64,000 nt of DNA, from NCBI GenBank assembly GCA_965116075.1, contig OZ220467.1, positions 1,857,067 through 1,921,066 on the forward strand. Reading direction: 5' to 3'. Source of the stretch: Thermodesulfobacteriota bacterium. GTDB lineage: Bacteria > Desulfobacterota_D > UBA1144 > Nemesobacterales > Nemesobacteraceae. Within the stretch, counting starts at the first letter, position 1, and every line of letters begins with the position of its first letter. This document shows, in pieces, positions 18,584 to 59,671 of the stretch. Made by a program: the position numbers and the translations under genes. Under the pieces are notes generated by a model, which was given only the letters and a program-made list of their open reading frames with translations, did not search any database and was not told where the DNA came from.

Positions 18584-18968
18584 TTTAAGTCCTCCTTTAT
18601 CTTAAATCTTCTGCTGTGCAATATATCTATTACTGCTCAAACAGTTTCTACTTGAACCTAGTATCACCCCTAGTTCAGTCAACAAAATAGCCATTTTATT
18701 TAATCATATTTTCTCTTATACCGCAATTGAACTTGAAGAAAATACATACTTATCCACCCAAAACTTGTTTTTCGTAGAACTGATTCCTTGGTTTTCTATA
18801 TACATTTCCCCGTACCAAAGACAGTGTCAGTTTTTCTTGAATAGACAGTATGTCTGTCGAAAGATTTTGCCCGATATCCTAATATGGAACATCTTTGATC
18901 TGTATGTAATATTTTGAAAGCGTAGGTTGTTCGTTCTCTGTTAGTTGTTCGGAGGAATTCAAAGAAGT

Positions 18969-19053
18969 GCCCAGGGCCGGACTCGAACCGGCACGGGAAA
19001 AACTCCCGAGGGATTTTAAGTCCCTTGCGTCTACCAATTCCGCCACCCGGGCA
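18969..19053 (-). tRNA. tRNA-Leu (anticodon TAA), long variable arm, CCA not encoded
   Basis: Reverse complement gcccgggtggcggaattggtagacgc..ggacttaaaatccc..ggttcgagtccggccctgggca folds as a class II tRNA with anticodon loop cuUAAaa. Confidence 0.8.
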
Positions 19054-19077
19054 TCAGTCTTAACGCCAACCAAAATA

Positions 19078-19152
19078 TGGAGGCGGCGCCCGGATTCGAA
19101 CCGGGGTATAACGGTTTTGCAGACCGTCGCCTTACCTCTTGGCTACGCCGCC
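19078..19152 (-). tRNA. tRNA-Cys (anticodon GCA), CCA encoded
   Basis: Reverse complement ggcggcgtagccaagaggtaaggc..ctGCAaaacc..ggttcgaatccgggcgccgcctcca; 75 nt. Confidence 0.85.
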
Positions 19153-19601: not shown

Positions 19602-20759
19602 ATGAAGTTACGTAATTTATTAGTGATGTTGTTTCTGCTCACTGGAGCAGTTTTCTTTGTAGCTTGCGAGGGAAAAGACGGGAAAGACGGAGCGAGAGGG
19701 CCAGCAGGGCCAGCAGGTGAAAAGGGGGATAAGGGTGACAAAGGTGACAAAGGCGACCCCGGGCCAGCAGGCGCGGATGGCAGAGACCTAAACCCCACCG
19801 GTGATACTAGGTGTGATGTTAGTAATGGTATAGATGCCCCCACAGCAGTGCGAGAGATCGCAGGGACTATGGATGATGATGTTATTTGCGGAAATGATGG
19901 CGATAACGAAATAAGAGCGGGAGGGGGAGATGATACGGTTTACGGTGGAGATGGCAATGACAAGTTGTTAGGTGGAGATGGAGACGATACGCTTTATGGT
20001 GAAGATGGAAATGATCATTTTTTCTTTATAAATGAAGCCGGTGTTAATAAATTTGTTGGGGGTGCTGGTAAAGACCTAGTCTATTTTGCTCGTAATGTTG
20101 TAAACACAGGAACGTCTTCTGCAGGCATTTATAACAACCCTTCCGGTTCCCTAACTTCCAAAGATATAACCTTTGATCTCTCTTCTGGGAGTTGGGATGG
20201 GACTTCTATTGACACTGGATCATTCACTTTTGAAGGTATTGAGGATGTTATTAGCGGTGATGGTGACGACACTATTACCGGAAATGACGAATCTAACTAT
20301 CTCTATACATGGGATGGTGATGACACTATAAACGGCGGAGCTGGCAACGATTTGATTAATGGTGTGGGTGGTGACGATACGATAGACGGTGGTGCCGGCG
20401 ATGATATTTTAGTCGCATGGGATAATGGCAATGATACTCTTACTGGAGGCGCAGGCGCAGATATTTTTTATGCTCGATATGCGTCATCCCCTGACCTTGT
20501 AGTTATTAAGGATTTTGATACGGCAAACGACAAACTCTATTTCAGAAGTTTTCCAGCAGTATCAGGGAATAATAGAACCGTAACCGCCTCGGGAGGTAAG
20601 ATTTTGGTTGGAGGGAATGAATATTTTGAAATACATGATGCGAACGGTTCACCAGACAGCACAAAAGCAACAAATATTGCAGGCGACTCAACAAGATATC
20701 GGTTTGTAGCACATGAATTTTCAGGGGAAACAAGATTCTACACATTTACAGACGACTAA
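19602..20759 (+). CDS. lipoprotein with collagen-like GXY triple-helix repeats and RTX (hemolysin-type) calcium-binding repeats
   Basis: Signal peptide with lipobox-like FVAC; about 12 GXY triplets (GKDGKDGARGPAGPAGEKGDKGDKGDKGDPGPAGADG); repeated GGxGxD nonapeptides (GGDGNDKLLGGDGDDTLYGEDGND...). Confidence 0.75.
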   Translation: MKLRNLLVMLFLLTGAVFFVACEGKDGKDGARGPAGPAGEKGDKGDKGDKGDPGPAGADGRDLNPTGDTRCDVSNGIDAPTAVREIAGTMDDDVICGNDGDNEIRAGGGDDTVYGGDGNDKLLGGDGDDTLYGEDGNDHFFFINEAGVNKFVGGAGKDLVYFARNVVNTGTSSAGIYNNPSGSLTSKDITFDLSSGSWDGTSIDTGSFTFEGIEDVISGDGDDTITGNDESNYLYTWDGDDTINGGAGNDLINGVGGDDTIDGGAGDDILVAWDNGNDTLTGGAGADIFYARYASSPDLVVIKDFDTANDKLYFRSFPAVSGNNRTVTASGGKILVGGNEYFEIHDANGSPDSTKATNIAGDSTRYRFVAHEFSGETRFYTFTDD

Positions 20760-29635: not shown

Positions 29636-31099
29636 TCAAACGCGTCTTTTCAGAAAAACAACCGAGAATAGAACAGACACCATAAACAACAGATTAACCA
29701 ATGCACTTTGAGGCGAATGACCTGTACCAGCAATCGCGCATCCGTCATCGTCATCTTTAGCCGATTGAGTCACAGGTGGTGGATAAATACCAGAACCAAA
29801 AATGTGGCGTAGATTTAATGTGGGTATCGCCTTGAGAGATGGGTTCTCTTTAACAGCTTCGGATAGTATATTCACAACTTCAATATAACTTACTTTAAGC
29901 GAAGTACCGGGGACAATCTTCTCTTCAAGGTAGTTCTCATTTTCATCATCTTGAACTTCAGGGTTATCCCAGCGATAGGTAACCCCGTTAGCAGAGTATC
30001 CAGCTTGAGGTTCCTCGTTGTCTTCTCCTTCTACCAACTTCTTTCGAAACAGAGTCACTATCTTTTTGTCTTCGCCTTCTAGTTCTTTATCTTCTAACTC
30101 CAACGTGAGACCATTCAAATTGGGATCGTTTGCGTTAATAAACACAGTACCTTCTGAAGTTGCTGTCATGACGAAAAGATATATGTTTTTATGCTTGAAA
30201 ACTTCAGAGGTACTCAGACAAGCAAATGAACTACTTATCTCCGCAAAACTATCACTAGTGAATTTTGCTATACCCTGCGGAGTAGACAAGTCTAAAGTAC
30301 CAGCACCCTTCTGATCATTGATCAACTTGGAAATTCTAGCGCGCAGAGCTTGTTGATACGATCCAATGGAACTTTTTACATAACCTTTAAGCAGTTCTTC
30401 TGTTGGGTTCTTATATACATCCTCAGCGGTAACTGGTAGAGCTGGAAAAACAGAGCAGTCAGGTTTAGAAAAAGGGTTGTTTTCATGTAATTTTCCATCA
30501 TCTTTCCTATTCTCATGATCAAGACCTACTATGATCTTCATAGCGTCCCTAGCTGGTCCGAAAGTTATGCTAATTCCACAAGTTTGTCTCGTTTTACCAT
30601 CATATTTGTAATCTTCGCACTCAGTAGTATTACCTCCGGCTGACTCATTAATTAAAATTTGCAAAGCCTCTGCAGGAGTGTCCTTCACCTTCGTAGAATC
30701 TAACTTGTACCCAAACAGTTCAGGATATTTCGAGTGACTTAATACGGTTCCACCAGCATCCACTACAATCACATACATTTCATCGGTTTTATAAACTTCT
30801 TGTGTTCTGAAATCTCTTGCAATAACTGAAAGCACTTGATTTGCACTTCTGCCAGTCGATTTTATAAGGGAATCATAATGCTCCTTTACATGTGAAAGAA
30901 ATTCCTGAACATCACTTTCAACAGTAGGATCTACATCTTTAGCCCCTTCATCATCCATATCTCCAACATCCTTACCCCCAACATTGACAACATGAGCGGA
31001 TACTTCAGTGGAAATGAACAAGAAAACCACCCCCAACAGAAAAACCAGACTTAGAACTCCCGTGGGGCAAATATTCCTTACAGAACTATCACTTTTCAT
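29636..31099 (-). CDS. secreted/surface protein with two tandem Cache-like (sCache_2-type) domains and a C-terminal GCAIAG/TM helix/KRR sorting-signal-like tail
   Basis: N-terminal signal/anchor. Cache-like segments YVIVVDAGGTVLSHSKYPELFGYKLD and NIYLFVMTATSEGTVFINANDPNLNGL...VTYRWDNP. C-terminal ...KDDDDGCAIAGTGHSPQSALVNLLFMVSVLFSVVFLKRRV. Confidence 0.65.
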   Translation of the reverse strand: MKSDSSVRNICPTGVLSLVFLLGVVFLFISTEVSAHVVNVGGKDVGDMDDEGAKDVDPTVESDVQEFLSHVKEHYDSLIKSTGRSANQVLSVIARDFRTQEVYKTDEMYVIVVDAGGTVLSHSKYPELFGYKLDSTKVKDTPAEALQILINESAGGNTTECEDYKYDGKTRQTCGISITFGPARDAMKIIVGLDHENRKDDGKLHENNPFSKPDCSVFPALPVTAEDVYKNPTEELLKGYVKSSIGSYQQALRARISKLINDQKGAGTLDLSTPQGIAKFTSDSFAEISSSFACLSTSEVFKHKNIYLFVMTATSEGTVFINANDPNLNGLTLELEDKELEGEDKKIVTLFRKKLVEGEDNEEPQAGYSANGVTYRWDNPEVQDDENENYLEEKIVPGTSLKVSYIEVVNILSEAVKENPSLKAIPTLNLRHIFGSGIYPPPVTQSAKDDDDGCAIAGTGHSPQSALVNLLFMVSVLFSVVFLKRRV

Positions 31100-39313: not shown

Positions 39314-40474
39314 TTAGTTGTCTGTAAAAATGTAGGTTCTTGACGTTGCTGAGAAAGAAGCAGTAACAAACTTATATTTTGTTGGGTCGTTTGCAATACT
39401 AGTTGCTTTTGTGCTGTCTGGAGCACCATTAGCGTCGTGAAGCAGAAATGAATGGGTGTAAACACTAGGATCCCTCGCTACTATAATCTTGCCATTTTCA
39501 GCCCTTACTTCTCTCTCTCCACCGCCTTCTGTTGCTACGGGATAACCTATGGAATAGAGTTTGTCTTCTGTAAGGTTAAAGTCCTTGATAACATCCACCC
39601 CAGCATGGTAATGACGAGCAGTAAAGATGTCGGCACCTACTCTACCACGAAGAATATCATCTCCATCTCCACCGTTTATAATGTCAACACCATTACCGCC
39701 GACAAGGTGATCATCGCCAGCTTCGCCGTTTATAGTGTTACCACCATTTCCACCCCAAATATAGTTATCCCCGTTTGTTCCGGTCAGCATGTCATCGCCA
39801 TTACCACTATAAAAATCTTCAATATCTTCAAATATAACCTTGCCTAATTTCTCAAGAGGTTCAGAACCACCTTCAAAACTTCCAGAAGAAAGATCAAAAG
39901 TTATATTATTGTTGACTACGGAACCAGAATAAAAACCCGAAGAGGAGGCACGAGCCCCCTCTGCGGGTGCTTGCCTGAAATAAATTATGTCTTTATCCTC
40001 CCCACCGAACCACTTGTTCTCCCCTGACGCAGATAGAAGATAGAAATGATCTTGTCCATCTTCGCCGTAAAGCGTATCGTTATCATCTCCACCCATCAGC
40101 CTATCATTTCCCTTACCTGCATAAACAACATCATCACCAGCAAGCGTTCTTATATCATTGTCGCTATCATTTGCGCAGACGATATCGGCATCCTGTGTTC
40201 CTTCAATGCTTCTCATGCCAGGGAGTACATTTATCCCGTTACTCTTATCGCATCTCGGGTCGTTTTCAACGCCGTCGCCTTTGTCACCTTTATCGCCTTT
40301 CGCTCCGTCCTTTCCTGGATCACCTTTGTCCCCCTTTGGTCCCGCCGGTCCGCGTTCGCCTTGAGGCCCTTGCACTCCGTCTTTCCTCGCTGGCCCTCTC
40401 TCTCCCTCACAAGCTACAAAAAAAACTGCTCCAGTAAGCAGCAACAACATCACTAATAAACTACGTAACTTCAT
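39314..40474 (-). CDS. paralogous lipoprotein with collagen-like GXY repeats and RTX calcium-binding repeats
   Basis: N-terminus MKLRSLLVMLLLLTGAVFFVACEG, near-identical to the 19602 gene. GXY run (GERGPARKDGVQGPQGERGPAGPKGDKGDPGKDGAKGDKGDKGDG); GGxGxD repeats; shared C-terminal ...FTDN. Confidence 0.75.
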   Translation of the reverse strand: MKLRSLLVMLLLLTGAVFFVACEGERGPARKDGVQGPQGERGPAGPKGDKGDPGKDGAKGDKGDKGDGVENDPRCDKSNGINVLPGMRSIEGTQDADIVCANDSDNDIRTLAGDDVVYAGKGNDRLMGGDDNDTLYGEDGQDHFYLLSASGENKWFGGEDKDIIYFRQAPAEGARASSSGFYSGSVVNNNITFDLSSGSFEGGSEPLEKLGKVIFEDIEDFYSGNGDDMLTGTNGDNYIWGGNGGNTINGEAGDDHLVGGNGVDIINGGDGDDILRGRVGADIFTARHYHAGVDVIKDFNLTEDKLYSIGYPVATEGGGEREVRAENGKIIVARDPSVYTHSFLLHDANGAPDSTKATSIANDPTKYKFVTASFSATSRTYIFTDN

Positions 40475-40899: not shown

Positions 40900-43014
40900 A
40901 TTAAGTCACAATTCGGTTTCTTCGTTGTTAGATTTCGATCTGGACGTTACAAATTTAGTTCTGGCTATTTAATGTTTGTTATGGTATGGTGTAGATCATG
41001 AGTAGACAGATGTCTCAGGATAATAAGATTGATCTGCGCGCGATCACAGTACGTCCTACCTATGGGGAACAGGAGCGTCGTCACTGGGACCACTTAGTCA
41101 GACTACATCACTATCTTCCATTCCATCGCGTGTTCGGCAAGGGATTGCGTCATGTAGCGGAAGTTGGGTCGCGTTGGGTGGCGCTTATTGGTTGGCAGGC
41201 AGGCGCATTCAAGTTAGCGGCCCGAGACCGCTGGATTGGCTGGAGCGCCGAGCAGCAGTTTGGACGCTTGCATCTGATTGCCAACAATGTGCGGTTTGTC
41301 ATTCTGACACGGCAGCGGGTGGCGAACTTGGCATCCCGAGTGCTGGGTCTGAGTCTGAGGCGGCTGTCTTCGGACATGCAGACAGCGCACGGTTATCCAG
41401 TGTTTCTGGCTGAGACGTTCGTAGATATTTCACGTTTTAATGGTACTTGCTACCGGGCGGCCAACTGGCAGTCTTTCGGGCTAACGCGCGGGTTTGCCCG
41501 TGAGTCTGGAGGGTCTGCGCGGTGGCGCTATCATGGTCAACCCAAGGAGGTCTTCATGTTTAATCTCGTTGATAATGCTAAAGAAGTATTAAGTCAAGAA
41601 GAGTTACCACCAGAATGGACCGGTGGGGTTCGTAAGGAGCCTATGACGGCGCCACAGTTACGCAGTCTCAAAGATGTTCTAGGTAAGGTGCCTGAGTTCC
41701 GAAAGTCTCAAGGTAGACGCTATCCTCTTGTCACCGTGTTGGTTCTCGCTGTCGCCGCCCGTTTGGCTGGATACCGCGGGGTGTCCGCCATAGCGCAGTT
41801 CGCCCGACTACTTAGTCAGGAACAGCTTAAGGCCGTTGGAGCGTTCTACAGTCCCAGTAAGAAATGCTACACTGCGCCGGTAATTGCCACCTTCCATAAC
41901 ATCTTCGCAAAACTGCCACCCGACACGCTTGATAAAGCGCTGAACCTGTGGGAAGCCCGCAAGACCTCGCCCGCAGCGCCGGTGGCGATGGACAGCAAGA
42001 TGATTCGTGGCGCAGCCAAGCAGACTGAGGGTGGAATTAGAATGATGGTAGCTGCCCTCGAACATAACACCGGCGTGGTTCTCGGTCAACTAGCAATCAA
42101 AGAAAAGAGCAGTGAGATGCTAGTGGTACGCGACCTAGCCAATAAACTCGACATTGCTGATCGTACTGTCACTCTAGATGCGCTGCATGCCCAGCAGGAT
42201 ACGGCGCGCTGTCTGCTGGAAAATGGAGCCGACTATGTGATGACCGCCATCAAGAACAATCAAAGAAGGATCAGCAAGGAAATAAAGGGATTGGACTTTG
42301 ATGCTGTGCCAGGATGGACAACCGAAGATTATAAACATGGGAGGATTGAAGAACGGACCTGTTGGGTAGTAGACCTATCCGGTTCTGAGTGGGATGGACA
42401 TGTAGGCATGCACGGACGGCGTCAAGCCATACGCATAGTCCGCAAGCGCACTGAGAAGAAGACAGGTAAAACCAGTTGCGAGACTGTCTATGCTCTGACC
42501 TCACTTGGCCCAGAGCAGGCTGGAGCCAAGGAGTTACTTGCTCTGGTTCGCAACCACTGGCACATTGAGAACCGTCTGCATTATGTGCGTGACTTCACCT
42601 ACGATGAAGACCGTTGTCGGGTATCAAAAGGGTACTTACCGGAAAATCTTTCCTGTCTGAGCAACGTTGTCATCGCCATAGTGCGTTGTGAAGGTAGATT
42701 CAACTATCTGCCTGAAGCTAACCGACACTATGCCGCCCGGCCTCAGGAAGCTATTGAACTTATAATGAAGCCGTTGAACTGAACGGTCGCACTTTACTCA
42801 CAACCCCGCCGGATAGCCTGTGCACTGCTCAGGTCTGATACCCTACGCCTACTGGACGGACAAAGGCTGCGTACACTGTAAGATGAAGCCGAATGTACCC
42901 TTGTTTCTTGCTAAAACTCTCCATCTGAAGTCCAAATCACAATCCAAACACTCCAAAACATCTATCTACCCAACCCTATACAAAGTCCCCGCTACGAAAA
43001 CTGAATGGTCCTGA
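40900..43014 (+). mobile_element. ISAs1-family insertion sequence (approximate boundaries)
   Basis: Contains the ISAs1-type transposase ORF; its right boundary is placed where the conserved lipoprotein-promoter remnant (G10 at 43015) begins. Confidence 0.5.
40998..42782 (+). CDS. ISAs1-family transposase with an N-terminal Arg-rich extension (594 aa)
   Basis: C-terminal NHWHIENRLHYVRDFTYDEDRCRV signature of ISAs1 (H-repeat-associated) transposases; DDE core upstream. Confidence 0.8.
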   Translation: MSRQMSQDNKIDLRAITVRPTYGEQERRHWDHLVRLHHYLPFHRVFGKGLRHVAEVGSRWVALIGWQAGAFKLAARDRWIGWSAEQQFGRLHLIANNVRFVILTRQRVANLASRVLGLSLRRLSSDMQTAHGYPVFLAETFVDISRFNGTCYRAANWQSFGLTRGFARESGGSARWRYHGQPKEVFMFNLVDNAKEVLSQEELPPEWTGGVRKEPMTAPQLRSLKDVLGKVPEFRKSQGRRYPLVTVLVLAVAARLAGYRGVSAIAQFARLLSQEQLKAVGAFYSPSKKCYTAPVIATFHNIFAKLPPDTLDKALNLWEARKTSPAAPVAMDSKMIRGAAKQTEGGIRMMVAALEHNTGVVLGQLAIKEKSSEMLVVRDLANKLDIADRTVTLDALHAQQDTARCLLENGADYVMTAIKNNQRRISKEIKGLDFDAVPGWTTEDYKHGRIEERTCWVVDLSGSEWDGHVGMHGRRQAIRIVRKRTEKKTGKTSCETVYALTSLGPEQAGAKELLALVRNHWHIENRLHYVRDFTYDEDRCRVSKGYLPENLSCLSNVVIAIVRCEGRFNYLPEANRHYAARPQEAIELIMKPLN

Positions 43015-45343: not shown

Positions 45344-46500
45344 TTAACCTCCTAGTGTTCCGTCAAGCAATGATTTTGGGTAGAGAGACTTAAGTCTGCA
45401 ACGGGCATCGGCAACCGACATACGCCAGTTCACACCACGCTGGCTTGCGTTGACGCGTTGCGACCACGCCGTTACTTCTGCCCGCAACTCGTCTAAGTCC
45501 CCGATCCGTAGACCCTTCAGACACTGCCGCGTCAGACAACTCAACTCGCACTCCGCCACGTTCAGCCAACTCGCGTGCTTTGGGGTGTACTGGAACTTGA
45601 TGCGCTGTCTCAACCGCCGTGCCCGCTCCGGCTCAAAAGCCTCGTATAACGCTCCCAGCGTGTGCGTGTTGAGGTTGTCCAGCACCAGCGTGATCATCTC
45701 GCAGTTTGCATAGCGATTCTCCAGCAGAGCCGCCACCTCCTCCGCCCAGTCCAATTTAGTGCGCCGCTCTCGCACCGTCACCGTGCGCCAACCTGCCAGC
45801 GGTTCACAGAACAGGAACACCAAGGCCATGCCGGCCCGTTGATACTTATAGTCCACACGGTGCGGATGCTCCGTGGTTGCAGGCAATGGCTGGCGGGTTT
45901 CCCCCACCATCTGTAGTCCATGCAAAACACTGGCCGCCGCTCATCGTAAGGCTCCTCGTAGGTCGACAGAACATCTTCCATGGCCGCCACATACTCCCCG
46001 TCCGCCTTCGGCGGAATCACCCAGTACTGCAGGTAGCGTCCCGCTATACCGTTTTTTTTAATGTCTTGTTGACGGTTTCGTGGCTGATCAATTCACAGAT
46101 GCCGGTCTCAACCGCCTCGCTTGCCAGCAGACGTAGCGACCATTGACCGCAACCGGCCGGTGGCGACCCCAGCCGTAGTGCGATCAGCGCGGCTTCCTGC
46201 CGCCCGTCCAAAAGCTTCGGTGGTCAGGTGGACGGGTTCTGTTGCCGCCCGTTGAGGGCCAACTCAAAACCTTCCAGCACACAACATTTACGCACGTTCG
46301 CGACGGTGCGCTCCTGACAACCGTAGGCCTCCGCGACCTGGTGGTCGCACCAGTTCGGCCCGTCCGCATCAACTTGTAGCAGAATACGCGCCCTGCACGC
46401 TTTCTGACTGCTACCCTTGAGTTTCTTGATGACCTCCCGACATGTCTTGCGTTCGGCCTCTGACAGGCGCACAATGTACTTCTTCATGGTTACTTCTCCT
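45344..46500 (-). pseudogene. IS630-family (Tc1/mariner-like) transposase split across three frames
   Basis: HTH N-terminal part 46224-46500 (...IVRLSEAERKTCREVIKK...). DDE part at 45344-45925 (VLDNLNTHT...YTPKHASWLNVAECE). Intervening piece 45778-46020 in a third frame. Confidence 0.65.
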
Positions 46501-46582
46501 TTGTTATAGAAAGATGGCTTGGGACACAGATCCCTCGCCTTAAAACACATTATACACAAAATGTTGATCTTGACGCAACACT

Positions 46583-48567
46583 GAGGCATTTGCGCTGTAA
46601 GGTTTTTGAGAGTGATTTTAGACGTAATGAGGTCATATGAACACATGTTCAGAACCGTTTCAGTTTGTACTGATTCGTATTTGAACAATCTGACGGTCAG
46701 ATTCCTTGATTTTCGCAGGATATGATGCTGATTTTCGCCCAATTATCAGCCTTTAGACGCAACTATACATTCACGGCCACTACCGCTAAATTCCTCTGGT
46801 CAAATTATCTGTAGTATTCGGAGAAAAACCCTATCCAGCCCGAGGAGCACACCCAGAAACAAGGGACCTCATCTTATCAGCCCTTCCAGCCTTTATGTGT
46901 CCAATGGCTAACGCCATCATCACACTCAACGCTAAGCCTGTACGAGCAGTCATTTTTGCCTTGCCTCTGATAAAATGCCTCTCTAACTTAAAACTATTGT
47001 CAACCCTTGAGTTTATACGTTCTATAGAATTCCTAAGCTTATACTCCCGCTCCCAAGTTACTGAACCATACGGAGTCGGGGTAAAAATACGAGGGTCCTT
47101 GTCCAAAGGAACTCGTATGGATAAGCCATATTCACTGTTCTTACGACCCGCATTTTTGTGACACTTCTCCCTGCCTACGCAATTCAGGTTATGCGCTGCC
47201 GCAGGACAACGAAACTTCAAAGTACCTCGCTCCTCTTCATATCCCCAACCCACCAACTTACTTTCTACCTTGGTTATAGGACAACGACACCAAACCTCGC
47301 CCTTCTCTGTGTAGAATATGTTGTTAATATCTTCTCTCAAAGGCCGCATAATCTTTTGCCCAGCAATATAGTTCTGATTCTCCAACTCCACCCTCCACAT
47401 CTCTCGGATACCAATTATAGGGTCAGTTCCATATTCGTTCCAAAACTTCTTCTTCAATGACTCACTGTCAAGACCCTTGTCTGCGCTGAAATATTCGCAT
47501 CGCTCCACCAACTCAGGGTTCTGCGCAAACAACTTGTCTATCATCCGATTCAACTCCTTATATTCTGATACAGATGCCTTTGTAAGACTCATCGCAACCG
47601 GTATCTCATACTTGGTATCGGCAATTACATGCAACTTGTAACCAAACCATCTCTTTACGCTTTTCCATGCCTTGCCTGTAGCAGAGTTAAACCCAGACGT
47701 AGTATGTACTCCCCAGTCCGCATCAGGATCGGATGTCTCTCCTGTCTTATTGCTCTTTCTCCCTGTGGAATTACTCTCTATAGACTTACCGTCATATCCT
47801 AGATGCTTCCCAAAATCCGGAAGCGATTCTCTCAACTCTCCTCCCATTCTATCCATCATTTTCGAAATCAGACCGTCGCGTTGCTCCAACTTCGCTACGT
47901 TTGATAGAAACCGAGAGAAATTGTGACTGCTAGGCGCCGTACTGTAGATAGGAAATTGTTTAACCACAACTTTAGGTCTCCCGCCGTTTTCATCCTGCTC
48001 AAGACTGTACTTGTCAATATGTTGTATGGGAATGGGACAGAATCCACATCTATTAAGTAGTTCAGAATTACGGTTCAGTTCCCGTATCAGTGATTCTATG
48101 GATTCGTGCTGAAACACTACGCCAGCAATCGTCGCCCTCCACATTGGTTCTACCGGATACTCATTACGCCCGTTCTTGCGCATAGCTTTCAAAGCCCTAA
48201 TGATATCTTCATCAGGCAAAGCATCCAAAACCAACTCAAGACGGTTGAGGTCTGAAATCTCATCAATTTGTTCCCAAGAGAATGGTAAATACTTTTTTTG
48301 TAGCAACTGTTTGCTCCTTATAGAGAGAATGTGTGAATGTTAGGAAGAATAATAACTGATATAGAATGTAAAGCAAGTAATATCAGCAAGTTATTTATCT
48401 CTTTCCCAAGTTTTTCAGGGAGAAATCGGCAACTGGTTTATGTGGGGTGAAATTTGTGGTTTTTGGCTTACATTAGCCGATTTTAGGGCTTTTTTGGGGT
48501 AAAAAGTTTTTTACCCCTTCTAAAAACCCTTGATATACATACATCTTTTGGACAGCGCAAATGCCTC
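46583..48567 (-). mobile_element. intact insertion sequence (~1985 bp) with perfect 16-bp TIRs and one DDE transposase ORF; master copy of the dispersed LE/RE repeats
   Basis: GAGGCATTTGCGCTGT at 46583-46598 and ACAGCGCAAATGCCTC at 48552-48567. LE interior matches the 43054 and 19295 copies; RE interior matches 9300-9501 and 31255-31400. Confidence 0.7.
46831..48306 (-). CDS. DDE transposase, IS4/IS5 superfamily (family unassigned)
   Basis: 491 aa. DDE region (GYKLHVIADTKYEIPVAM...) and C-terminal E(x6)R/K signature (SIERINSRVDNSFKLER) typical of the IS4/IS5 superfamily. Confidence 0.8.
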   Translation of the reverse strand: MLQKKYLPFSWEQIDEISDLNRLELVLDALPDEDIIRALKAMRKNGRNEYPVEPMWRATIAGVVFQHESIESLIRELNRNSELLNRCGFCPIPIQHIDKYSLEQDENGGRPKVVVKQFPIYSTAPSSHNFSRFLSNVAKLEQRDGLISKMMDRMGGELRESLPDFGKHLGYDGKSIESNSTGRKSNKTGETSDPDADWGVHTTSGFNSATGKAWKSVKRWFGYKLHVIADTKYEIPVAMSLTKASVSEYKELNRMIDKLFAQNPELVERCEYFSADKGLDSESLKKKFWNEYGTDPIIGIREMWRVELENQNYIAGQKIMRPLREDINNIFYTEKGEVWCRCPITKVESKLVGWGYEEERGTLKFRCPAAAHNLNCVGREKCHKNAGRKNSEYGLSIRVPLDKDPRIFTPTPYGSVTWEREYKLRNSIERINSRVDNSFKLERHFIRGKAKMTARTGLALSVMMALAIGHIKAGRADKMRSLVSGCAPRAG

Positions 48568-48742
48568 AACACTAGTTGAAATCTTTTTCCTTCCTTACTT
48601 TCAGCATACCCACCCTTTGAGGACGGGAAGGTCAAATCATCATGACTAAGTATATAACCCCTCACATCATTTGAGTTGTTGAATATAAGATCAAAAACAT
48701 GGTATAGTCAGTTTATAATATTTTATTTCTAGGAGGTGTAAT

Positions 48743-50236
48743 ATGAAGTTTGTTGGATGCTTTCAAAGGGCTCATTCTATAAGAATCCTGACTCTATTTT
48801 TCGTAGGTGTCATGTTATTATTTACATTCGCTCATACTACTAAAGTATTAGCTCATGATCCTAGCGATGCCGATGATAAGAAAGCTTCAGACGTAGATGT
48901 TACAAGTAAGGCAGATGTTGAGGGATTTCTCTCACATGTAGTGGAACATTATAATTCTCTATCGGAATCGTCGTTAAAGGAAAGAAGTGAAGACTCATCA
49001 ACATCGCGACAGTTTGCACCTGCCGCCAGAGAGTTAAGGACCAATCCGGTCTACAAAGACCTTGACAGGGGAATGTATGTAATTTTAATAAACTCTGGTG
49101 GAACTGTATTAAATCACTCGGCATATCCCGAACTTTTTGGGTACAAGTTTGATATGACTTCTATTGAAGGGGATGACAATGAAGGAGAGGACACGACTCC
49201 TGCTGAAGCTTTACAAGTTTTAATTACGGAGTCAACTGGAGGTAATACTAAGTGCAAAGATTATAAATATGGTGATAAAACGAGATGGGCCTGCGGAACC
49301 CGTGTAAATTACGGACGTTTCGAGGATGTTATAACGGCCGTAGTAGGTCTTCATCATGAGAATAAGAAAGATGATGGGAAGTTACATGAAAACAACCCTT
49401 TTTCTGAACCTGACTGCCCTGGTTTTCTAGAGTTAAAAACCACTGCTAAGAAGGTACATATGGATCCGACGGAGGCCAACCTTAAAGCTTTTGTAAGAGA
49501 ATCTATTGAATCGCTTAACCACGCTGTAGCTAAAGGTATGTCCGATCTAGTAGGTAAGCAGACCTCAGACTTCTTGTCTACTGAGCAGAAACGATTGGAT
49601 TTTGCTGAGAAAATCGCTGTTAAGTTAACTAGTTTAGCTGGTTGTGCTAATGTTGAAGAATTCAAGCATGAAAACATATATCTTTTCGCTATGACGGCAA
49701 CTCCAGAAGGTACTGTGTTTGTTAACGGAAACAATGCCGATTTGAATGGTCTTACACTAGAGTTAGAAGATGGAGAGTTAGACGGTGATGACAAAAAAAT
49801 AGTGACCCTGTTTCGAAATGCGTTGATACCTCAAAATAGAAAGGAAAAGAAACCCAAAGTTGGAGATTCCGCTATAGTCGAATACCGATGGAGCGACCCT
49901 GCTAAAAACGGTACTGATCTGATTAAGAACTGGCTTGAAAATAACAGTGTTCCCGGCACTACGCCTAAGAAAAGTTATATTCAAGTGACGGATATAACAT
50001 CTGGAATTGACGAAAAGATTCGGAAGATTCCAGGACTTGGTCAGTTACTGGACGGCATAACTCTCAAGATCGTTGGTTCTGGGATTTATCCAACCCCAAC
50101 AACTCCAGCGACTAAAGATGACGATGACGGATGCGCGATTGCTGGAACAGACCATTCATCTCAAAACGCTTTGGTTAATCTATTGTTGATAACATCTGTT
50201 CTGTTCTCAATTGTTTTTTTGAGAAGACGCGCTTAA
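48743..50236 (+). CDS. paralogous secreted/surface protein with tandem Cache-like domains and C-terminal GCAIAG/TM helix/RRR tail
   Basis: Shares blocks with 29636-31099 (GGNT.C.DYKY, HENxKDDGKLHENNPFS.PDC, ENIYLF.MTAT.EGTVF, LNGLTLELED.EL.G.DKKIVTLFR) and the C-terminal KDDDDGCAIAGTDHSSQNALVNLLLITSVLFSIVFLRRRA. Confidence 0.65.
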   Translation: MKFVGCFQRAHSIRILTLFFVGVMLLFTFAHTTKVLAHDPSDADDKKASDVDVTSKADVEGFLSHVVEHYNSLSESSLKERSEDSSTSRQFAPAARELRTNPVYKDLDRGMYVILINSGGTVLNHSAYPELFGYKFDMTSIEGDDNEGEDTTPAEALQVLITESTGGNTKCKDYKYGDKTRWACGTRVNYGRFEDVITAVVGLHHENKKDDGKLHENNPFSEPDCPGFLELKTTAKKVHMDPTEANLKAFVRESIESLNHAVAKGMSDLVGKQTSDFLSTEQKRLDFAEKIAVKLTSLAGCANVEEFKHENIYLFAMTATPEGTVFVNGNNADLNGLTLELEDGELDGDDKKIVTLFRNALIPQNRKEKKPKVGDSAIVEYRWSDPAKNGTDLIKNWLENNSVPGTTPKKSYIQVTDITSGIDEKIRKIPGLGQLLDGITLKIVGSGIYPTPTTPATKDDDDGCAIAGTDHSSQNALVNLLLITSVLFSIVFLRRRA

Positions 50237-50264
50237 TTTATACGACTTTTAAGATTTGTTTATT

Positions 50265-50300
50265 GAACAAGGGCGGTTTAAAAACCGTCCTTGTTCTTTT
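50265..50300 (+). terminator. rho-independent terminator
   Basis: gaacaagggcggttt / aaaccgtccttgttc stem (one mismatch) followed by TTTTCTT. Confidence 0.55.
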
Positions 50301-50488
50301 CTTCCAGAGTTCAGAATTGATTTACCGCAATTAGCAACGTTTCTGTTTGCAAATACGCTACTACGGAAATAGACTCATAAGTTGGTGTGTACACAGCGCT
50401 GATATATTTCTTCTAATCAAGTGTTGTCCACATTATTCACCGTAGAAACAGCATAAATAAGGAGATTGAAGAACTCCGCCTTGGCTTT

Positions 50489-51146
50489 TTGCCCTCTGTG
50501 AAGGAGGCTTTCCATATTCAGAGAAATCTTTCACAGATGGTGGTTCAGATCCCGAGTTCTGCAGATATAAGCACTGTAGCTGGAGTGGATATAGTCGTCT
50601 GCGCAAAGGAGAACAAACTTATCTGTGGAATCATTCTTTTTTCCTACCCAGAGATAAAAGAGGTTGAGAGAGTCTGGACCGTTTCGGATGAAGTCTTTCC
50701 TTATGTTCCGGGGCTTTAGGGAAGTTCCGTCTGTAATGAAAACGTTTAAAAAACTCAAGAACCGTTGTGACATGCTTATGATAGACGAACACGGGATTGC
50801 TCATCCGAGAAGATTTGGGCTCGCATGTCATGTCGGCGTGTTGCTAGATGTCCCAGCAATCGGGGTTGCGAAGAAAAGCCTTTACGGAACCTTTGAGAAT
50901 CTTGGTCTCGCAAGAGGTGAGAGAACGTTTATAAAAGGAGAAGACAACTCTGACGTAATAGGGGTGGTTTTGAGAACAAGGGATGGAGTAAAGCCCGTAT
51001 TTATATCAGTTGGTCACAGAACCGATATTGATACGGCAGTTGCTATTGTACTTAAGTGCTTAAGCGGGTTAAGAATTCCAGAACCTACAAGGCTTGCGGA
51101 TAAATACGTTGCTTCGCTTAAGAAGGAAGCATGCCTTTTTTATTAG
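50489..51146 (+). pseudogene. nfi: endonuclease V (nfi) interrupted by a +1 frameshift in a GGGG run near 50710
   Basis: N-terminal part ends ...YVPGL*; the other frame continues FREVPSVM...DEHGIAHPRRFGLACHVGVLLDVPAIGVAKK (EndoV signature). One extra G in ccgggg explains the shift. Confidence 0.7.
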
Positions 51147-51393
51147 TACAAGAACTCGTTCAGAGGTACATACAGTTACTTGGTTCATTGTCCTTAAATA
51201 TCTTCGCAGACACCCTTCTTTCTCCACTGCACTCGGTATGGTTATGCCCACTACATACAGCGAAACTCTCTTAGCCCAAGTTTACCCAAAACCTACTAAA
51301 AATTGGCTATTTTCGGCCTTTTTTTCTCTTTTTTCCTACGGGTGAGCTTCGTATGTTAGTGATATGCCGTTATTTATAATTTTGAAAAGGCAA

Positions 51394-53336
51394 ATGTAGT
51401 GCCATACTACGCTTTTTACCCCTTGACATACATCTTACAATGTAATAATATCTCTATATATGTTCATTCGTCGCACTAAAACCAGAAAGGACTATGATTT
51501 CTTCACCTTCCGCCTCGTACGCTCCGAGCGTATAGGTAAAAAGGTGAAGCAACGTACTTTGCTCAACCTAGGAAGTAATTTTAATGTTGATCCCAAACAC
51601 TGGTCCCTGCTTTGCTATCGAATCAAGCAAATTCTCTCTGGTCAGTCTTCCCTATTAGATTATGAGATACCTTCTGAGTTGGAATCTCATGCCCAACAGA
51701 TTACTGCGCAATTGTTGGCCAAACGACGCGTTGGCTTCACAACCGAACTGGGATCTAGTAAGAACTCAAAGCCCGACTATCAGTGCGTTGACGTTAACTC
51801 TACGAAGACGATTCGGCCCCGTTCGGTAGGAGTAGAAAACGTAGCTCTGTGGGCGATGGACCAACTTGGTTTGCGTCAGTTACTTAATGAATTGGAATTA
51901 ACTCCGTCGTTGCGCGATGCCGCCATAGGTTCTATAGTAGCGCGTATGGCCGAGCCGGGTTCTGAGCAAGCCACTAGGCGTTGGTTAGCCAAAAGTAGCG
52001 CGCTTGGTGAGTTGATAGGAGTTGAGTTTGAGAAGATGGGAGCAATGCAGTTATATCGCGCTTCTGATGCGTTAATGGCGCACCGTGAAACCCTGGAACG
52101 TCATTTGTTCGAACGAGCGATGGAGTTATTTGATCTGAGTCCCACGATCACGCTCTACGACCTGACCAATACTTATTTTGAGGGAGGTGTAGACGGTATT
52201 GCAGAGGCAAAACGCGGGCACTCTAAGGAGAAACGTTCTGACTGTCCGTTACTCACTTTGGGGATGGTGGTTGACGCTAGCGGGTTTACTCGGCGCTTCA
52301 AAGTCTTTGCAGGTAATGTACGAGAGCATCAAACATTATCTGAGATGCTGAAACAACTTGACGCTCCCGCAAATGCCCTTGTGGTGATGGACCGAGGGAT
52401 TGCCACCGAAGACGGAGTACAGTGGCTACAAGAACAAGGCTATAAGTATGTTGTCGTCAGCAGAGAACGTAATCGTCAGTTTGACCCTGAGGGAGCTATA
52501 CGTCTTGAGACCGCATCAAATCATGGAGTCATTCTAAAAAAAGTGCTTTCAAAGGACGGCAAAGAGGTGAGACTGTACTGTTTCTCTGAATCCAGAGCGG
52601 CGAAGGAAGAATCCATCAGCAAGCGGTTCACCGAGAAGTTTGAAGAAGGACTGACTGCTCTATCGGAAAAGCTTACACGACCGCGCACAGTAAAACGGAT
52701 TGATAAGATATGGCAGAGTATAGGTCGTCTGCAAGGAGAAAGTCAAGGAATATCTCAACACTATAAGGTGGAAGTTGATACTGACGACAGTGGTAAATAC
52801 GCTACTGCAGTACGCTTTACTCGCAAGCCGGTGAGCGGCACGATGCTCACTGATCCTGGAGTGTACTGTCTGCGAAGCAACGAAACTGATTGGGACGAAG
52901 CCAAACTGTGGCGAACTTACTTCACTCTCACTGATATAGAAGCGGTATTCCGTTCTCTGAAGTCAGAACTTGGGTTACGCCCGATTTTCCACTGGAAATC
53001 GGTTAGAGCCGAAGGGCATCTGTTCATTACAGTGATAGCATATCAGTTGGTACAGGTTATCCGTACTAAGTTACGTCTGGCTGGTAAGCAAGCTAGTTGG
53101 AACACGCTACGCAATATTCTTGAGGACCAACGACGTACCACTTCGACCCTTCGTCGCCGTGATGGTAAAACGCTACATGTGCGCACGACTAGTCAACCGG
53201 AGTCAGAGCAACAGGAAATTTTAGGTGCATTGGGGGCTGACTTCACGGCGGGAGGAATGCAAAAGACGGTAGTATAATGTGCGCTTATTTTTGCAGAAAA
53301 TAGTTCCCGTAACAAAATGTAGTGCCACACCAATTT
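51394..53336 (+). mobile_element. IS1634-family insertion sequence (approximate boundaries)
   Basis: Transposase ORF flanked by the 13-bp direct repeat AAATGTAGTGCCA at 51394 and 53316. The IS1634 family is known for long and variable target duplications. Confidence 0.45.
51460..53277 (+). CDS. IS1634-family transposase
   Basis: N-terminus MFIRRTKTRKDYDFFTFRLVRSERIGKKVKQRTLLNLG is the typical IS1634 start; 605 aa. Confidence 0.8.
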   Translation: MFIRRTKTRKDYDFFTFRLVRSERIGKKVKQRTLLNLGSNFNVDPKHWSLLCYRIKQILSGQSSLLDYEIPSELESHAQQITAQLLAKRRVGFTTELGSSKNSKPDYQCVDVNSTKTIRPRSVGVENVALWAMDQLGLRQLLNELELTPSLRDAAIGSIVARMAEPGSEQATRRWLAKSSALGELIGVEFEKMGAMQLYRASDALMAHRETLERHLFERAMELFDLSPTITLYDLTNTYFEGGVDGIAEAKRGHSKEKRSDCPLLTLGMVVDASGFTRRFKVFAGNVREHQTLSEMLKQLDAPANALVVMDRGIATEDGVQWLQEQGYKYVVVSRERNRQFDPEGAIRLETASNHGVILKKVLSKDGKEVRLYCFSESRAAKEESISKRFTEKFEEGLTALSEKLTRPRTVKRIDKIWQSIGRLQGESQGISQHYKVEVDTDDSGKYATAVRFTRKPVSGTMLTDPGVYCLRSNETDWDEAKLWRTYFTLTDIEAVFRSLKSELGLRPIFHWKSVRAEGHLFITVIAYQLVQVIRTKLRLAGKQASWNTLRNILEDQRRTTSTLRRRDGKTLHVRTTSQPESEQQEILGALGADFTAGGMQKTVV

Positions 53337-59107: not shown

Positions 59108-59116
59108 GGGAAAACG

Positions 59117-59668
59117 CTACTCCAGTTCTTCTCTCTTCCATCCCCTGCCCGTATCAACTCCAACAAGACTGAGAAGCTTGTCTACGTAGCCGCTTACTAC
59201 ATCGGAGACCGAATCTGAGCCAAGATAGTCAGTGGGGGAAACAGGCGCTATAATGACACCTTCACGGGATAACTTAAGAGCGTTTTCAAGGGTGATAGTG
59301 CTCTGGGGGGTTTCTCTGAGTCCTATTATGAGCTTTCTTTTTTCCTTCAAAGCCACCGCGGCTATCCTAGTTATCAGGGTGTCTGCTATTCCGTTTGCAA
59401 TTTTAGCAAGAGTGGAGACCGAACACGGAACTATCACCATTGAATCAAAATGGTTGCTTCCCGAGGAAAAAGGCGCCGCCATATCAGAGTCACTATAAAT
59501 ATCAGTTACCCAAGGCCGCATTTCTTCAACCTTGAGACCAAGTTCCTCGTGCAGAACTCTCCTACCCCACTTGCTCGCTACTAGAAATTTCTCTTCAGGA
59601 CATCGTCTTACGAAATCAACCCCATAGGCAACTCCTGAGGCTCCGGTAATTCCGACTATGGTTCGCAT
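59117..59668 (-). CDS. ubiX: flavin prenyltransferase UbiX
   Basis: N-terminus MRTIVGITGASG and PCS..TLA motif; 183 aa. Confidence 0.85.
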   Translation of the reverse strand: MRTIVGITGASGVAYGVDFVRRCPEEKFLVASKWGRRVLHEELGLKVEEMRPWVTDIYSDSDMAAPFSSGSNHFDSMVIVPCSVSTLAKIANGIADTLITRIAAVALKEKRKLIIGLRETPQSTITLENALKLSREGVIIAPVSPTDYLGSDSVSDVVSGYVDKLLSLVGVDTGRGWKREELE

Positions 59669-59671
59669 GGC

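What the first reader, a model, noticed from the sequence alone, without database searches (positions are those of the whole stretch)
29636..31099. Secreted tandem-Cache protein with a Cys-containing C-terminal sorting-signal-like tail (GCAIAG, TM helix, KRR)
The protein has an N-terminal signal and two segments with the sCache_2 pattern (Y.F..D..G..L.H...P.L.G..L...D, then ...Y.W..P) but no cytoplasmic transmitter domain. It ends ...KDDDDGCAIAGTGHSPQSALVNLLFMVSVLFSVVFLKRRV, which is an acidic run, a conserved Gly-Cys motif, a hydrophobic helix and a basic tail. That tripartite layout is the grammar of exosortase, rhombosortase and MYXO-CTERM-type sorting signals, where Cys-containing variants are thought to be cleaved and lipidated. 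The motif GCAIAG does not match the named classes I know, so it may be a new sorting class.
Basis: partly seen in the sequence, partly recalled or inferred. Interest (0 to 1): 0.7.

Follow-up and report, generated by a model that had tools for sequence, protein, structure and literature searches.

The report
New Cys-type sorting tail in Dadabacteria
A secreted ligand-binding protein of an uncultured Dadabacteria genome ends in a highly conserved cysteine-containing membrane tail that many unrelated surface proteins of this lineage share, and the same genomes encode a divergent myxosortase-like protease that probably cleaves it, so this looks like an undescribed variant of a known protein-sorting system.

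Summary
ORF 29636-31099(-) encodes a 487-aa protein with a signal peptide, two homologous sCache_2-like modules, no transmitter domain, and the tail KDDDDGCAIAGTGHSPQSALVNLLFMVSVLFSVVFLKRRV. A 50%-identical paralogue at 48743-50236(+) has the same tail.

The tail is the most conserved part of the family: 65% mean pairwise identity against 39% for the body. A tail-only profile finds 157 proteins in 1.84 billion. About 25 have unrelated passengers (LRR/fn3/SRCR, Calx-beta/PKD, metalloprotease-like). Several passenger types lie on one Dadabacteria chromosome.

No NCBIfam sorting-signal model (MYXO-, JDVT-, Synerg-, CGP-, GlyGly-, PEP-CTERM) matches the tail.

Best reading: a fifth Cys-type tripartite C-terminal sorting signal with its own myxosortase subfamily. 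The enzyme-substrate link rests only on co-occurrence and analogy; cleavage and lipidation are inferred. This is a new variant of a known kind, of moderate interest.

The parts
29636..31099 (-). Whole gene: 487-aa precursor made of signal peptide, two sCache_2-like modules, acidic linker and GC-tail (the stop codon is included).
   Evidence: ORF list. It is 100% identical to P0001, which lies on a 2,386,527-bp contig.
30995..31099 (-). Residues 1-35: predicted Sec signal peptide, MKSDSSVRNICPTGVLSLVFLLGVVFLFISTEVSA, with predicted cleavage before His36.
   Evidence: Translation. The layout was read from the sequence. The homologues share ...EASA|H. This region has low pLDDT in the model.
30500..30937 (-). 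Residues about 55-200: Cache-like module 1. It carries invariant Y109, H122, C161, C174 and H195.
   Evidence: Sub-threshold Pfam dCache_2, AF2 secondary structure, fold hits to sCache_2 domains, invariant columns.
29765..30418 (-). Residues about 228-445: Cache-like module 2, with canonical sCache_2-type motifs (NIYLFVM..GTVF.N, Y.W..P, K.SYI, FGSGIY).
   Evidence: AF2 model, hhalign of module 1 against module 2 at prob 91%, invariant Y307, F309, Y375, W377, P380, K402, Y405, G435-S436-G437 and Y439.
29639..29758 (-). Residues 448-487: the sorting-signal-like tail KDDDDGCAIAGTGHSPQSALVNLLFMVSVLFSVVFLKRRV.
   Evidence: Translation. It is the most conserved segment of the family.
29738..29740 (-). 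Codon of Cys454, the invariant Cys of the G-C-A-I-A signature.
   Evidence: C454 is invariant in A3. 52 of the 53 first-round homologues keep the Cys.
29651..29704 (-). Residues 466-483: hydrophobic helix ALVNLLFMVSVLFSVVFL, with near-invariant Asn469 fifteen residues after the Cys.
   Evidence: Hydropathy scan, helix 464-486 in the AF2 model, Cys-to-Asn spacing of 15 in 107 of 148 family tails.
29642..29650 (-). Residues 484-486: basic cluster KRR, predicted to be cytoplasmic.
   Evidence: Sequence. In-frame two-unit fusions in other genomes place this basic stretch between the tail helix and a second signal peptide.
48743..50236 (+). Paralogue, 497 aa, 50% identical, same architecture. Its tail is at 50114-50233.
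   Evidence: It is flanked by IS transposase genes.

Best explanation
The gene encodes a Sec-exported, transmitter-less protein built of two sCache_2-like ligand-binding modules. Its last 40 residues form a dedicated C-terminal sorting signal that appears restricted to Dadabacteria. The signal consists of:
- an acidic or Gly-rich linker;
- the signature G-C-A-I-A-G with an invariant Cys;
- a polar spacer of 8-12 residues;
- a transmembrane helix that opens with a conserved (L/F)-N-L-(F/L)-L;
- a basic cluster.

Proposed mechanism:
1. The signal peptide drives export. The tail helix holds the precursor in the inner membrane with KRR on the cytoplasmic side. This topology is inferred and is supported by natural in-frame fusions.
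2. A Dadabacteria-specific, about 200-aa CPBP/Rce1-type glutamic intramembrane protease of the myxosortase lineage recognises the tail. In this genome that protease is P0337, encoded elsewhere on the chromosome. It cleaves at or just after the Cys. This step is inferred from co-occurrence and family relationship.
3. Cleavage probably follows modification of the Cys side chain, presumably with a lipid. The mature protein would then stay attached to the cell envelope or surface. This step rests purely on analogy with MYXO-CTERM/MrtX and CaaX/Rce1.

The same system would serve LRR, Calx-beta/PKD and other surface proteins in these genomes. The Cache-like passenger most likely binds a small ligand; its nearest solved folds are chemoreceptor sensor domains, one described as recognising carboxylic acids and another solved with urea and small amides. 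Its partner and output are unknown.
For: Tail conservation:
- The tail is invariant in kind across 52 of 53 homologues down to 26% body identity.
- Mean pairwise identity is 65% in the tail, 39% in the body, and 53% in the best body window.

Portability:
- The tail-only profile finds 157 proteins at E<=1e-3 and 64 at E<=1e-10 in 1.84e9 sequences.
- About 25 of these do not match the body HMM.
- Their passengers are LRR+fn3, LRR+SRCR, Calx-beta, Calx-beta+PKD, and a weak metalloprotease match.
- Calx-beta P0181, LRR P0250 and Cache-like P0015 all map to the 1,919,453-bp chromosome.

Lineage restriction:
- All 48 genome loci are from Dadabacteria or 'Thermodesulfobacteriota' MAGs, apart from two contigs of one MAG labelled Spirochaetia.

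Not a known class:
- No NCBIfam CTERM model hits the tail at E<=10 or E<=1.

Candidate enzyme:
- L058:1153-1758 is a PF02517 gene.
- Its top NCBIfam hits are MrtP 76.1, Mrt_core 72.7, MrtS 60, MrtC 56.5, MrtX 41.9 and MrtJ 40.9 bits.
- The window-genome orthologue P0337 gives the same pattern: 67.7, 64.6 and 63.7 bits.
- Its nearest relatives outside the group that were scanned match myxosortase models best, and three of the six pass the Mrt_core cutoff.
- The motifs PEEFFFRGY, FA.AH and FHF.AN are invariant.

Co-occurrence:
- CPBP orthologues lie on contigs of 2,386,527; 1,980,752; 1,919,453; 2,441,076; 1,904,368; 1,523,597; 2,275,767; 1,555,729; 825,371 and 359,287 bp. All of these contigs also carry tail proteins.

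Topology:
- In-frame fusions read [body - tail helix - K/R loop - second signal peptide ending ANA|HE - body - tail].

Precedent:
- Four Cys-type signals have predicted cognate CPBP enzymes (10.1101/2023.06.07.544157).
- MrtX cleavage has been shown experimentally and depends on the Cys (PMC11980579).
Against: No cleavage, lipidation or surface localisation has been observed for any of these proteins.

The CPBP gene is never adjacent to a tail gene. In L058 it lies about 8 kb away among housekeeping genes. In L061/L062 its upstream neighbour has no tail.

Co-occurrence was seen only inside one lineage, where any conserved gene co-occurs. I could not show that the protease is absent from genomes without the tail, and I could not count CPBP paralogues per genome.

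The protease scores below every curated myxosortase cutoff.

Most CPBP-type models listed among these NCBIfam hits are Mrt models, so 'best hit is Mrt' is partly biased.

A family of small proteins carries GCAIAG...LNLFLIGL with a too-short hydrophobic stretch and no basic cluster. That does not fit a standard tripartite signal.
Confidence: 0.62

Rival explanations
1. The tail is a permanent C-terminal membrane anchor and is not cleaved. The Cache-like protein would be a tail-anchored periplasmic receptor. Its conserved helix, with the Asn, would pack against a partner membrane protein such as a transducer or transporter.
For: The architecture of ligand-binding domains plus one helix and nothing else resembles a split sensor. 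Transporter genes (SulP/STAS, TauE, AmiS) are found near family members in several loci. Conserved polar residues inside a helix often mark helix-helix contacts.
Against: The same tail, with the same G-C-A-I-A and N-L-F-L, sits on LRR, Calx-beta/PKD and other adhesin-type passengers. These would not share a signalling partner. An invariant Cys preceded by a Gly/Asp linker outside the membrane has no role in a plain anchor. The neighbouring genes are mostly syntenic housekeeping genes.
Confidence: 0.2
2. The tail is a true sorting signal but is processed by a different enzyme (rhombosortase, an exosortase-type enzyme, or an unknown one). The Dadabacteria CPBP would have another job.
For: The CPBP-tail pairing rests only on lineage co-occurrence. 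The Gly-rich run before the Cys is faintly reminiscent of GlyGly-CTERM.
Against: No GlyGly-, PEP- or other CTERM model matches. No rhomboid or exosortase gene was seen in about 1 Mb of Dadabacteria loci around tail genes or in the window. All four previously described Cys-type signals pair with CPBP enzymes (10.1101/2023.06.07.544157). This CPBP belongs to that branch.
Confidence: 0.12
3. The shared tail reflects recent duplication of one gene family and has no special function.
For: Most hits do belong to one expanded family, with at least 5 paralogues in this genome.
Against: Paralogues have diverged to 26-50% identity in the body while the tail stays at 65%. Unrelated passenger families carry it.
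Confidence: 0.03

Closest known systems
MYXO-CTERM / myxosortase (MrtX, MrtC, MrtP) of Myxococcota and Bradymonadales
   Same: Both have a tripartite C-terminal signal with an invariant Cys after a Gly-rich linker, then a helix and a basic cluster. Both have many client proteins per genome with unrelated passengers. In both, the enzyme is a housekeeping CPBP/Rce1-type protease that is not encoded next to its clients. The Dadabacteria protease's best curated matches are these models.
   Different: TIGR03901 does not match the tail. The Dadabacteria tail has a single Cys rather than the frequent GCGC. It has a fixed C-A-I-A-G context, a polar spacer of 8-12 residues, and a conserved Asn at the start of the helix. 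The lineage is different. The protease is only about 200 aa and scores 63-73 bits on Mrt_core (cutoff 100).
JDVT-CTERM / MrtJ
   Same: Both have a single invariant Cys, conserved residues inside the helix, and a CPBP enzyme.
   Different: The Dadabacteria tail has no Asp-Pro nine residues after the Cys. It has many clients per genome rather than one. The enzyme is not adjacent to a client. MrtJ scores only 38-43 bits (cutoff 75).
Eukaryotic CaaX box / Rce1 (and archaeal MmRce1, PDB 4CAD)
   Different: The motif is internal and is followed by a helix and a basic cluster; it does not lie at the extreme C-terminus. It faces the periplasm, not the cytosol. No prenyltransferase link was found.
sCache_2 / dCache_2 sensor domains of chemoreceptors and kinases (e.g. 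5G4Y, 4EXO, 4K08, TlpB 3UB7)
   Same: Each of the two modules has the same fold and the same motifs.
   Different: Here two sCache_2-like modules stand in tandem on a secreted protein with no transmitter domain. The first module has extra conserved Cys pairs. Pfam scores fall below the gathering threshold for this member.

Membership tests
Tripartite C-terminal protein-sorting signal (generic class, sensu Haft) | Lies at the extreme C-terminus and consists of a short signature motif, a hydrophobic helix and a basic cluster. | tested here: met
   The profile matches end within a few residues of the C-terminus in nearly all hits.
Tripartite C-terminal protein-sorting signal (generic class, sensu Haft) | Shared by proteins that have no other homology, with several such proteins per genome. 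| tested here: met
   LRR/fn3/SRCR, Calx-beta/PKD and Cache-like passengers. Three passenger types lie on the 1,919,453-bp chromosome.
Tripartite C-terminal protein-sorting signal (generic class, sensu Haft) | A cognate processing enzyme strictly co-occurs with the signal across genomes. | tested here: inconclusive
   Ten contigs carry both the tail and the CPBP. Absence in genomes without the tail could not be tested.
Tripartite C-terminal protein-sorting signal (generic class, sensu Haft) | The signal is removed from the mature protein. | not testable with these tools
   This needs mass spectrometry or a western blot.
MYXO-CTERM (TIGR03901) | Matches the curated HMM. | tested here: not met
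   No hit at E<=10 on the tail or the full protein. No hit at E<=1 on ten other carriers.
MYXO-CTERM (TIGR03901) | Invariant Cys in the signature motif. | tested here: met
MYXO-CTERM (TIGR03901) | Restricted to Myxococcota and Bradymonadales; a second Cys (GCGC) is frequent. | tested here: not met
   The hosts are Dadabacteria. The tail has a single Cys with an A-I-A context. The criteria are from 10.1101/2023.06.07.544157.
JDVT-CTERM | Near-invariant Asp-Pro nine residues after the Cys; usually one client per genome, encoded next to MrtJ. | tested here: not met
   There is no DP. A conserved Asn lies at +15 instead. There are many clients per genome and the enzyme is not adjacent.
Synerg-CTERM / CGP-CTERM | Invariant Pro within the helix (Synerg-CTERM), or Gly-Pro right after the Cys (CGP-CTERM). 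| tested here: not met
   The tail consensus is GCAIAG...LNLFLIASVLFSVVFLRRR. There are no HMM hits.
Myxosortase family (NF040914 Mrt_core and the MrtX/C/P/S/J/Z equivalogs) | Scores above the curated cutoff of the core or an equivalog model. | tested here: not met
   Mrt_core scores 62.7-72.7 bits against a cutoff of 100. All equivalog models also fall below their cutoffs.
Myxosortase family (NF040914 Mrt_core and the MrtX/C/P/S/J/Z equivalogs) | Closest curated relatives are myxosortases rather than other CPBP groups. | tested here: met
   The top 5-6 hits are Mrt models. The remote homologues found by the search that were scanned match Mrt models best, and three of six pass the Mrt_core cutoff. 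Caveat: most CPBP-type models among the listed NCBIfam hits are Mrt models.
CPBP / Rce1-like glutamic intramembrane protease (PF02517) | Pfam match, the EExxxR / FxxxH / HxxxN motifs, and the Rce1 fold. | tested here: met
sCache_2 / dCache_2 (PF17200 / PF08269) | Pfam match at the gathering threshold. | tested here: not met
   dCache_2 scores 22.7 bits against 26.5 for this protein, and the paralogue has no hit. Distant family members P0040 and P0042-P0049 carry precomputed PF08269, most of them also PF17200.
sCache_2 / dCache_2 (PF17200 / PF08269) | Cache/PAS-like fold. | tested here: met
   AF2 model with pTM 0.79. The top PDB matches are sCache_2 domains with prob about 1.0.

The most novel reading that the evidence does not exclude
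The GCAIAG tail and the about 200-aa Dadabacteria CPBP would form a fifth, self-contained Cys-type sorting system. Its cleavage-site context (C-A-I-A) literally matches the eukaryotic CaaX rule. That would make it a bacterial system in which an Rce1-type protease acts on an internal, periplasm-facing CaaX-like motif.

The system may process more than ordinary precursors. It may also handle natural two-unit polyproteins of the form tail - basic loop - second signal peptide. It may also handle 80-aa Cys/His-rich mini-proteins that keep only GCAIAG...LNLFL, without a full helix or a basic cluster. If so, recognition would reside in the motif plus the start of the helix, not in membrane anchoring.
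Probability: 0.3. Interest if true: 0.7.

Novelty: new variant of a known kind. Interest (0 to 1): 0.55.

Why it matters
C-terminal sorting signals determine which proteins a bacterium displays on its surface. Each newly recognised class lets whole sets of 'hypothetical' proteins be annotated as surface proteins and assigns a role to an orphan CPBP protease.

Dadabacteria are uncultured, small-genome bacteria known here only from metagenome-assembled genomes. This signal marks their likely surface proteome: LRR, Calx-beta and Cache-like binding proteins.

The tail has an unusually rigid signature and a very small cognate protease candidate. Together they would make a compact model for how Rce1-type enzymes recognise Cys-containing substrates. 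The natural two-unit fusions would add to that model.

A curated HMM for the tail and one for the protease subfamily would be the immediate practical output.

Tried and rejected
- Sorting enzyme next to the gene: none found. The window has no multi-pass protease. The only multi-pass membrane proteins are UbiA and DUF2905.
- UbiA at 59672-60514 as the Cys-prenylating enzyme: rejected. It sits with UbiD, a UbiX-like flavoprotein and an MqnC-like radical-SAM gene, which indicates quinone synthesis.
- Conserved neighbours of 48 tail loci (0.93 Mb): only syntenic housekeeping genes and transporters (SulP/STAS, TauE, AmiS, H+-PPase, ABC permeases). A motif scan for CPBP found nothing.
- Contexts of the small Cys/His-rich tail carriers: they lie in defence islands, with no protease nearby.
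- The FG-GAP gene just upstream of the CPBP in L061/L062: it has no tail.
- The look-up of encoding contigs for P0001 and P0046: this genome is not on record.
The narrower A2 was used instead, so the taxonomic survey is biased towards the main tail form.
- The tail-profile word search returned only short proteins. The exhaustive representative search was needed.
- Literature search for Dadabacteria plus CTERM: nothing.
- Rfam and tRNA scans of the window: only tRNA-Leu and tRNA-Cys, both unrelated.
- Promoter and terminator scan around the gene: no more than shuffled sequence gives.
Full report
**1. What is in the window**

The ORF 29636..31099 on the minus strand encodes 487 aa. The first 35 residues have the layout of a Sec signal peptide ending ...EVSA|H (read from the sequence, no predictor run).

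A six-frame search for C-terminal 'helix plus basic end' tails found one more such protein in the window. It lies at 48743..50236(+), is 497 aa long, and is 50% identical with an almost identical tail.

The gene stands alone between a redoxin/AhpC-TSA gene plus GlnRS on one side and a thiolase/crotonase/hydroxyacyl-CoA dehydrogenase cluster on the other. The paralogue sits between IS transposase genes. The window also holds a TonB-dependent receptor and a TolC-like protein, so the organism has an outer membrane.

**2. The passenger**

Pfam sees only a sub-threshold dCache_2 match (22.7 bits against 26.5). NCBIfam sees nothing.

An AF2 model built on 34 homologues is confident outside the signal peptide and the linker (pLDDT 83.6, pTM 0.79). 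It shows two alpha/beta modules, each preceded by long helices.

- The best PDB matches are single sCache_2 sensor domains: 5G4Y (a carboxylic-acid-recognising Cache chemosensory domain), 4EXO/2QHK, 4K08, and TlpB 3UB7.
- The two modules are homologous to each other (hhalign prob 91%).

So 'tandem Cache without a transmitter' is right. The ligand is unknown; a small carboxylate or amide is a guess based on the nearest folds.

**3. The tail is a conserved, portable module**

The 53 homologues found first all come from Dadabacteria-type assemblies. All but one carry [D/G]-G-C-A-I-A-G ... L-N-L-F-L ... RRR, even at 26-30% body identity.

In a 34-sequence alignment, mean pairwise identity is as follows:

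| Segment | Mean pairwise identity |
|---|---|
| Tail | 65% |
| Body | 39% |
| Best 36-residue body window | 53% |

A profile of 15 tails alone, run exhaustively against 1.84 billion representative proteins, found 157 proteins at E<=1e-3 and 64 at E<=1e-10. A local HMM of the body showed that about 25 of them are unrelated to the Cache-like family. Pfam and NCBIfam identify those passengers as LRR+fn3, LRR+SRCR, Calx-beta, Calx-beta+PKD and a weak metalloprotease match. These are typical surface or adhesin modules.

Cluster look-ups place a Calx-beta carrier (P0181), an LRR carrier (P0250) and Cache-like carriers on the same 1,919,453-bp chromosome.

Across 192 tails:
- the residue before the Cys is Gly in 163;
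- positions C+1 to C+3 are A-I/V-A in the large majority;
- the conserved Asn lies 15 residues after the Cys in 126, and 16 or 18 residues after it in most of the rest.

A scan of one genome per GTDB species with the main tail form gave 48 loci. All came from Dadabacteria or 'Thermodesulfobacteriota bacterium' MAGs of 1.5-2.4 Mb, except two contigs of one MAG labelled Spirochaetia.

**4. It is not one of the named signals**

NCBIfam release 20.0 holds the MYXO-, JDVT-, Synerg-, CGP-, GlyGly- and PEP-CTERM models, among others. It gave no hit on the tail.

By the published descriptions (10.1101/2023.06.07.544157):
- MYXO-CTERM often has GCGC and is confined to Myxococcota and Bradymonadales;
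- JDVT-CTERM has Asp-Pro nine residues after the Cys and one client per genome;
- Synerg-CTERM has an invariant Pro;
- CGP-CTERM has Gly-Pro after the Cys.

None of these fits.

**5. The candidate enzyme**

No protease gene lies next to tail genes. This holds for the window and for about 1 Mb of loci. That is what is expected of a housekeeping sorting enzyme with many clients, as argued for myxosortase in the Haft preprint.

The locus around the Calx-beta carrier contained a 201-aa PF02517 (Rce1-like/CPBP) gene 8 kb upstream.

- NCBIfam hits: its best hits are MrtP, Mrt_core, MrtS, MrtC, MrtX and MrtJ, all below cutoff.
- Family: a search with it returned 104 proteins. Almost all are about 200 aa long. 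Most carry no name; four are annotated as CPBP family proteases from Dadabacteria, Thermodesulfobacteriota or an unclassified bacterium, and a few JGI records are named 'membrane protease YdiL (CAAX protease family)' or hypothetical protein.
- In this genome: one hit, P0337 (54% identical), lies on the 2,386,527-bp contig that carries the window's protein P0001. Others lie on nine further contigs that also carry tail proteins. P0337 is not in the window.
- Nearest outsiders: P0337 gives the same myxosortase-first hit list. The six remote, non-Dadabacteria relatives that were scanned match myxosortase models best, and three of them pass the Mrt_core cutoff.
- Motifs: PEEFFFRGY, FA.AH and FHF.AN are invariant, as are two Cys residues between them.

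**6. Mechanism and what is shown**

Shown:
- the architecture;
- the conservation and portability of the tail;
- its lineage restriction;
- the presence of a myxosortase-like CPBP in the same genomes.

Supported indirectly:
- The topology. In several genomes two complete units are fused in frame, so the tail helix is followed by a K/R-rich loop and then a second signal peptide ending ANA|HE or AEA|HE. This only makes sense if the tail helix crosses the membrane with its basic end inside.

Inferred by analogy:
- that the CPBP cleaves at the Cys;
- that the Cys is first modified;
- that the product stays on the envelope or surface.

The analogy is to MrtX, which is required for cleavage and surface anchoring of TraA, depends on the conserved Cys residues, and cleaves MYXO-CTERM in E. 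coli (PMC11980579). It also draws on Rce1/MmRce1, which require a lipidated Cys (10.1101/2023.06.07.544157).

**7. Rivals**

- A plain anchor that pairs with a membrane partner remains possible for the Cache-like family. It does not explain the same tail on adhesin-type proteins or the invariant extracytoplasmic Cys.
- A different sorting enzyme cannot be excluded without whole genomes.
- Simple paralogy is contradicted by the unrelated carriers.

**8. Verdict**

This is best filed as a new variant of the Cys-type (myxosortase-type) C-terminal sorting systems. It has a new signal class and a new small protease subfamily, in an uncultured lineage. It extends a known principle and does not introduce a new one. 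The evidence for the module is strong; the evidence for the enzyme pairing is moderate.

Noticed in passing
L029:2002-10132 (three genes in a row); also L027, L028, L030, L032, L034 and proteins P0095, P0096, P0098, P0115: Two complete units (signal peptide, Cache-like body, GC-tail) are fused in frame in ORFs of 850-905 aa. The first tail helix is followed by a K/R-rich loop and then a second signal peptide ending ANA|HE or AEA|HE. This looks like a natural polyprotein with alternating topogenic signals.
   Followed up: partly
P0069-P0093; loci L001:10001-10207, L052-L057: A family of about 80-aa proteins has a signal peptide, a Cys/His-rich stretch (HSGGTDSSGCHAGSQPYHCH), then DDDDNGCAIAGPEDTNGSIILNLFLIGLNVFSPPDS. 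It keeps the D-run, GCAIAG and LNLFL, but the hydrophobic stretch is too short for a helix and there is no basic cluster. The genes lie in defence-island contexts (QatB, KAP NTPase, TIR, group II intron). Their host lineage was not determined.
   Followed up: partly
window 46224-53277: The second Cache-like paralogue (48743-50236) is bracketed by two DDE_Tnp_1 transposase genes (46831-48306 on the minus strand, 51460-53277 on the plus strand). Beside it lie an HTH_23 ORF and an Endonuclease V ORF that matches only the C-terminal two-thirds of the Pfam model (50664-51146). The region looks rearranged by IS elements.
   Followed up: partly
window 19602-20759 (+) and 39314-40474 (-): Two paralogous proteins have a lipoprotein-like N-terminus (...FFVAC), collagen-type G-X-Y repeats and RTX calcium-binding repeats (Pfam Collagen and HemolysinCabind).
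   Followed up: partly
window 40998-42782 (+): A 594-aa ORF joins an N-terminal match to the Druantia DruA domain (92 bits) with DDE_Tnp_1_assoc and DDE_Tnp_1 transposase domains.
   Followed up: no
Alignment A4 (P0337 numbering C144 and C153): The Dadabacteria CPBP subfamily has two invariant Cys residues between catalytic motifs 2 and 3 (H..VIC.F......C..N.LTFFPS). I did not check whether canonical myxosortases share them.
   Followed up: no
L005:3850-6276, L017:10768-13017, L022:7418-9673, L023:14526-16775, L025:11435-13699: A SulP-family transporter with a STAS domain lies within a few kb of a tail-bearing Cache-like gene in five loci. TauE and AmiS/UreI transporters occur near others. This may be synteny only, or a hint at the ligand.
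   Followed up: partly
L026 and L047 (CAYSDX01, MAG labelled 'uncultured Spirochaetia bacterium'): These two contigs carry Dadabacteria-type tail proteins with 49-79% tail identity. The bin label is probably wrong, or the contigs are mis-binned.
   Followed up: no
window 18967-19152 (-): tRNA-Leu(TAA) and tRNA-Cys(GCA) lie next to each other. They are the only RNA genes that Rfam and ARAGORN found in the window.
   Followed up: yes
window 56247-60514 (-): A cluster of an MqnC-like radical-SAM gene, UbiD, a UbiX-like flavoprotein and a UbiA prenyltransferase, consistent with quinone biosynthesis. I considered it as a source of a Cys-prenylating activity and set that idea aside.
   Followed up: partly
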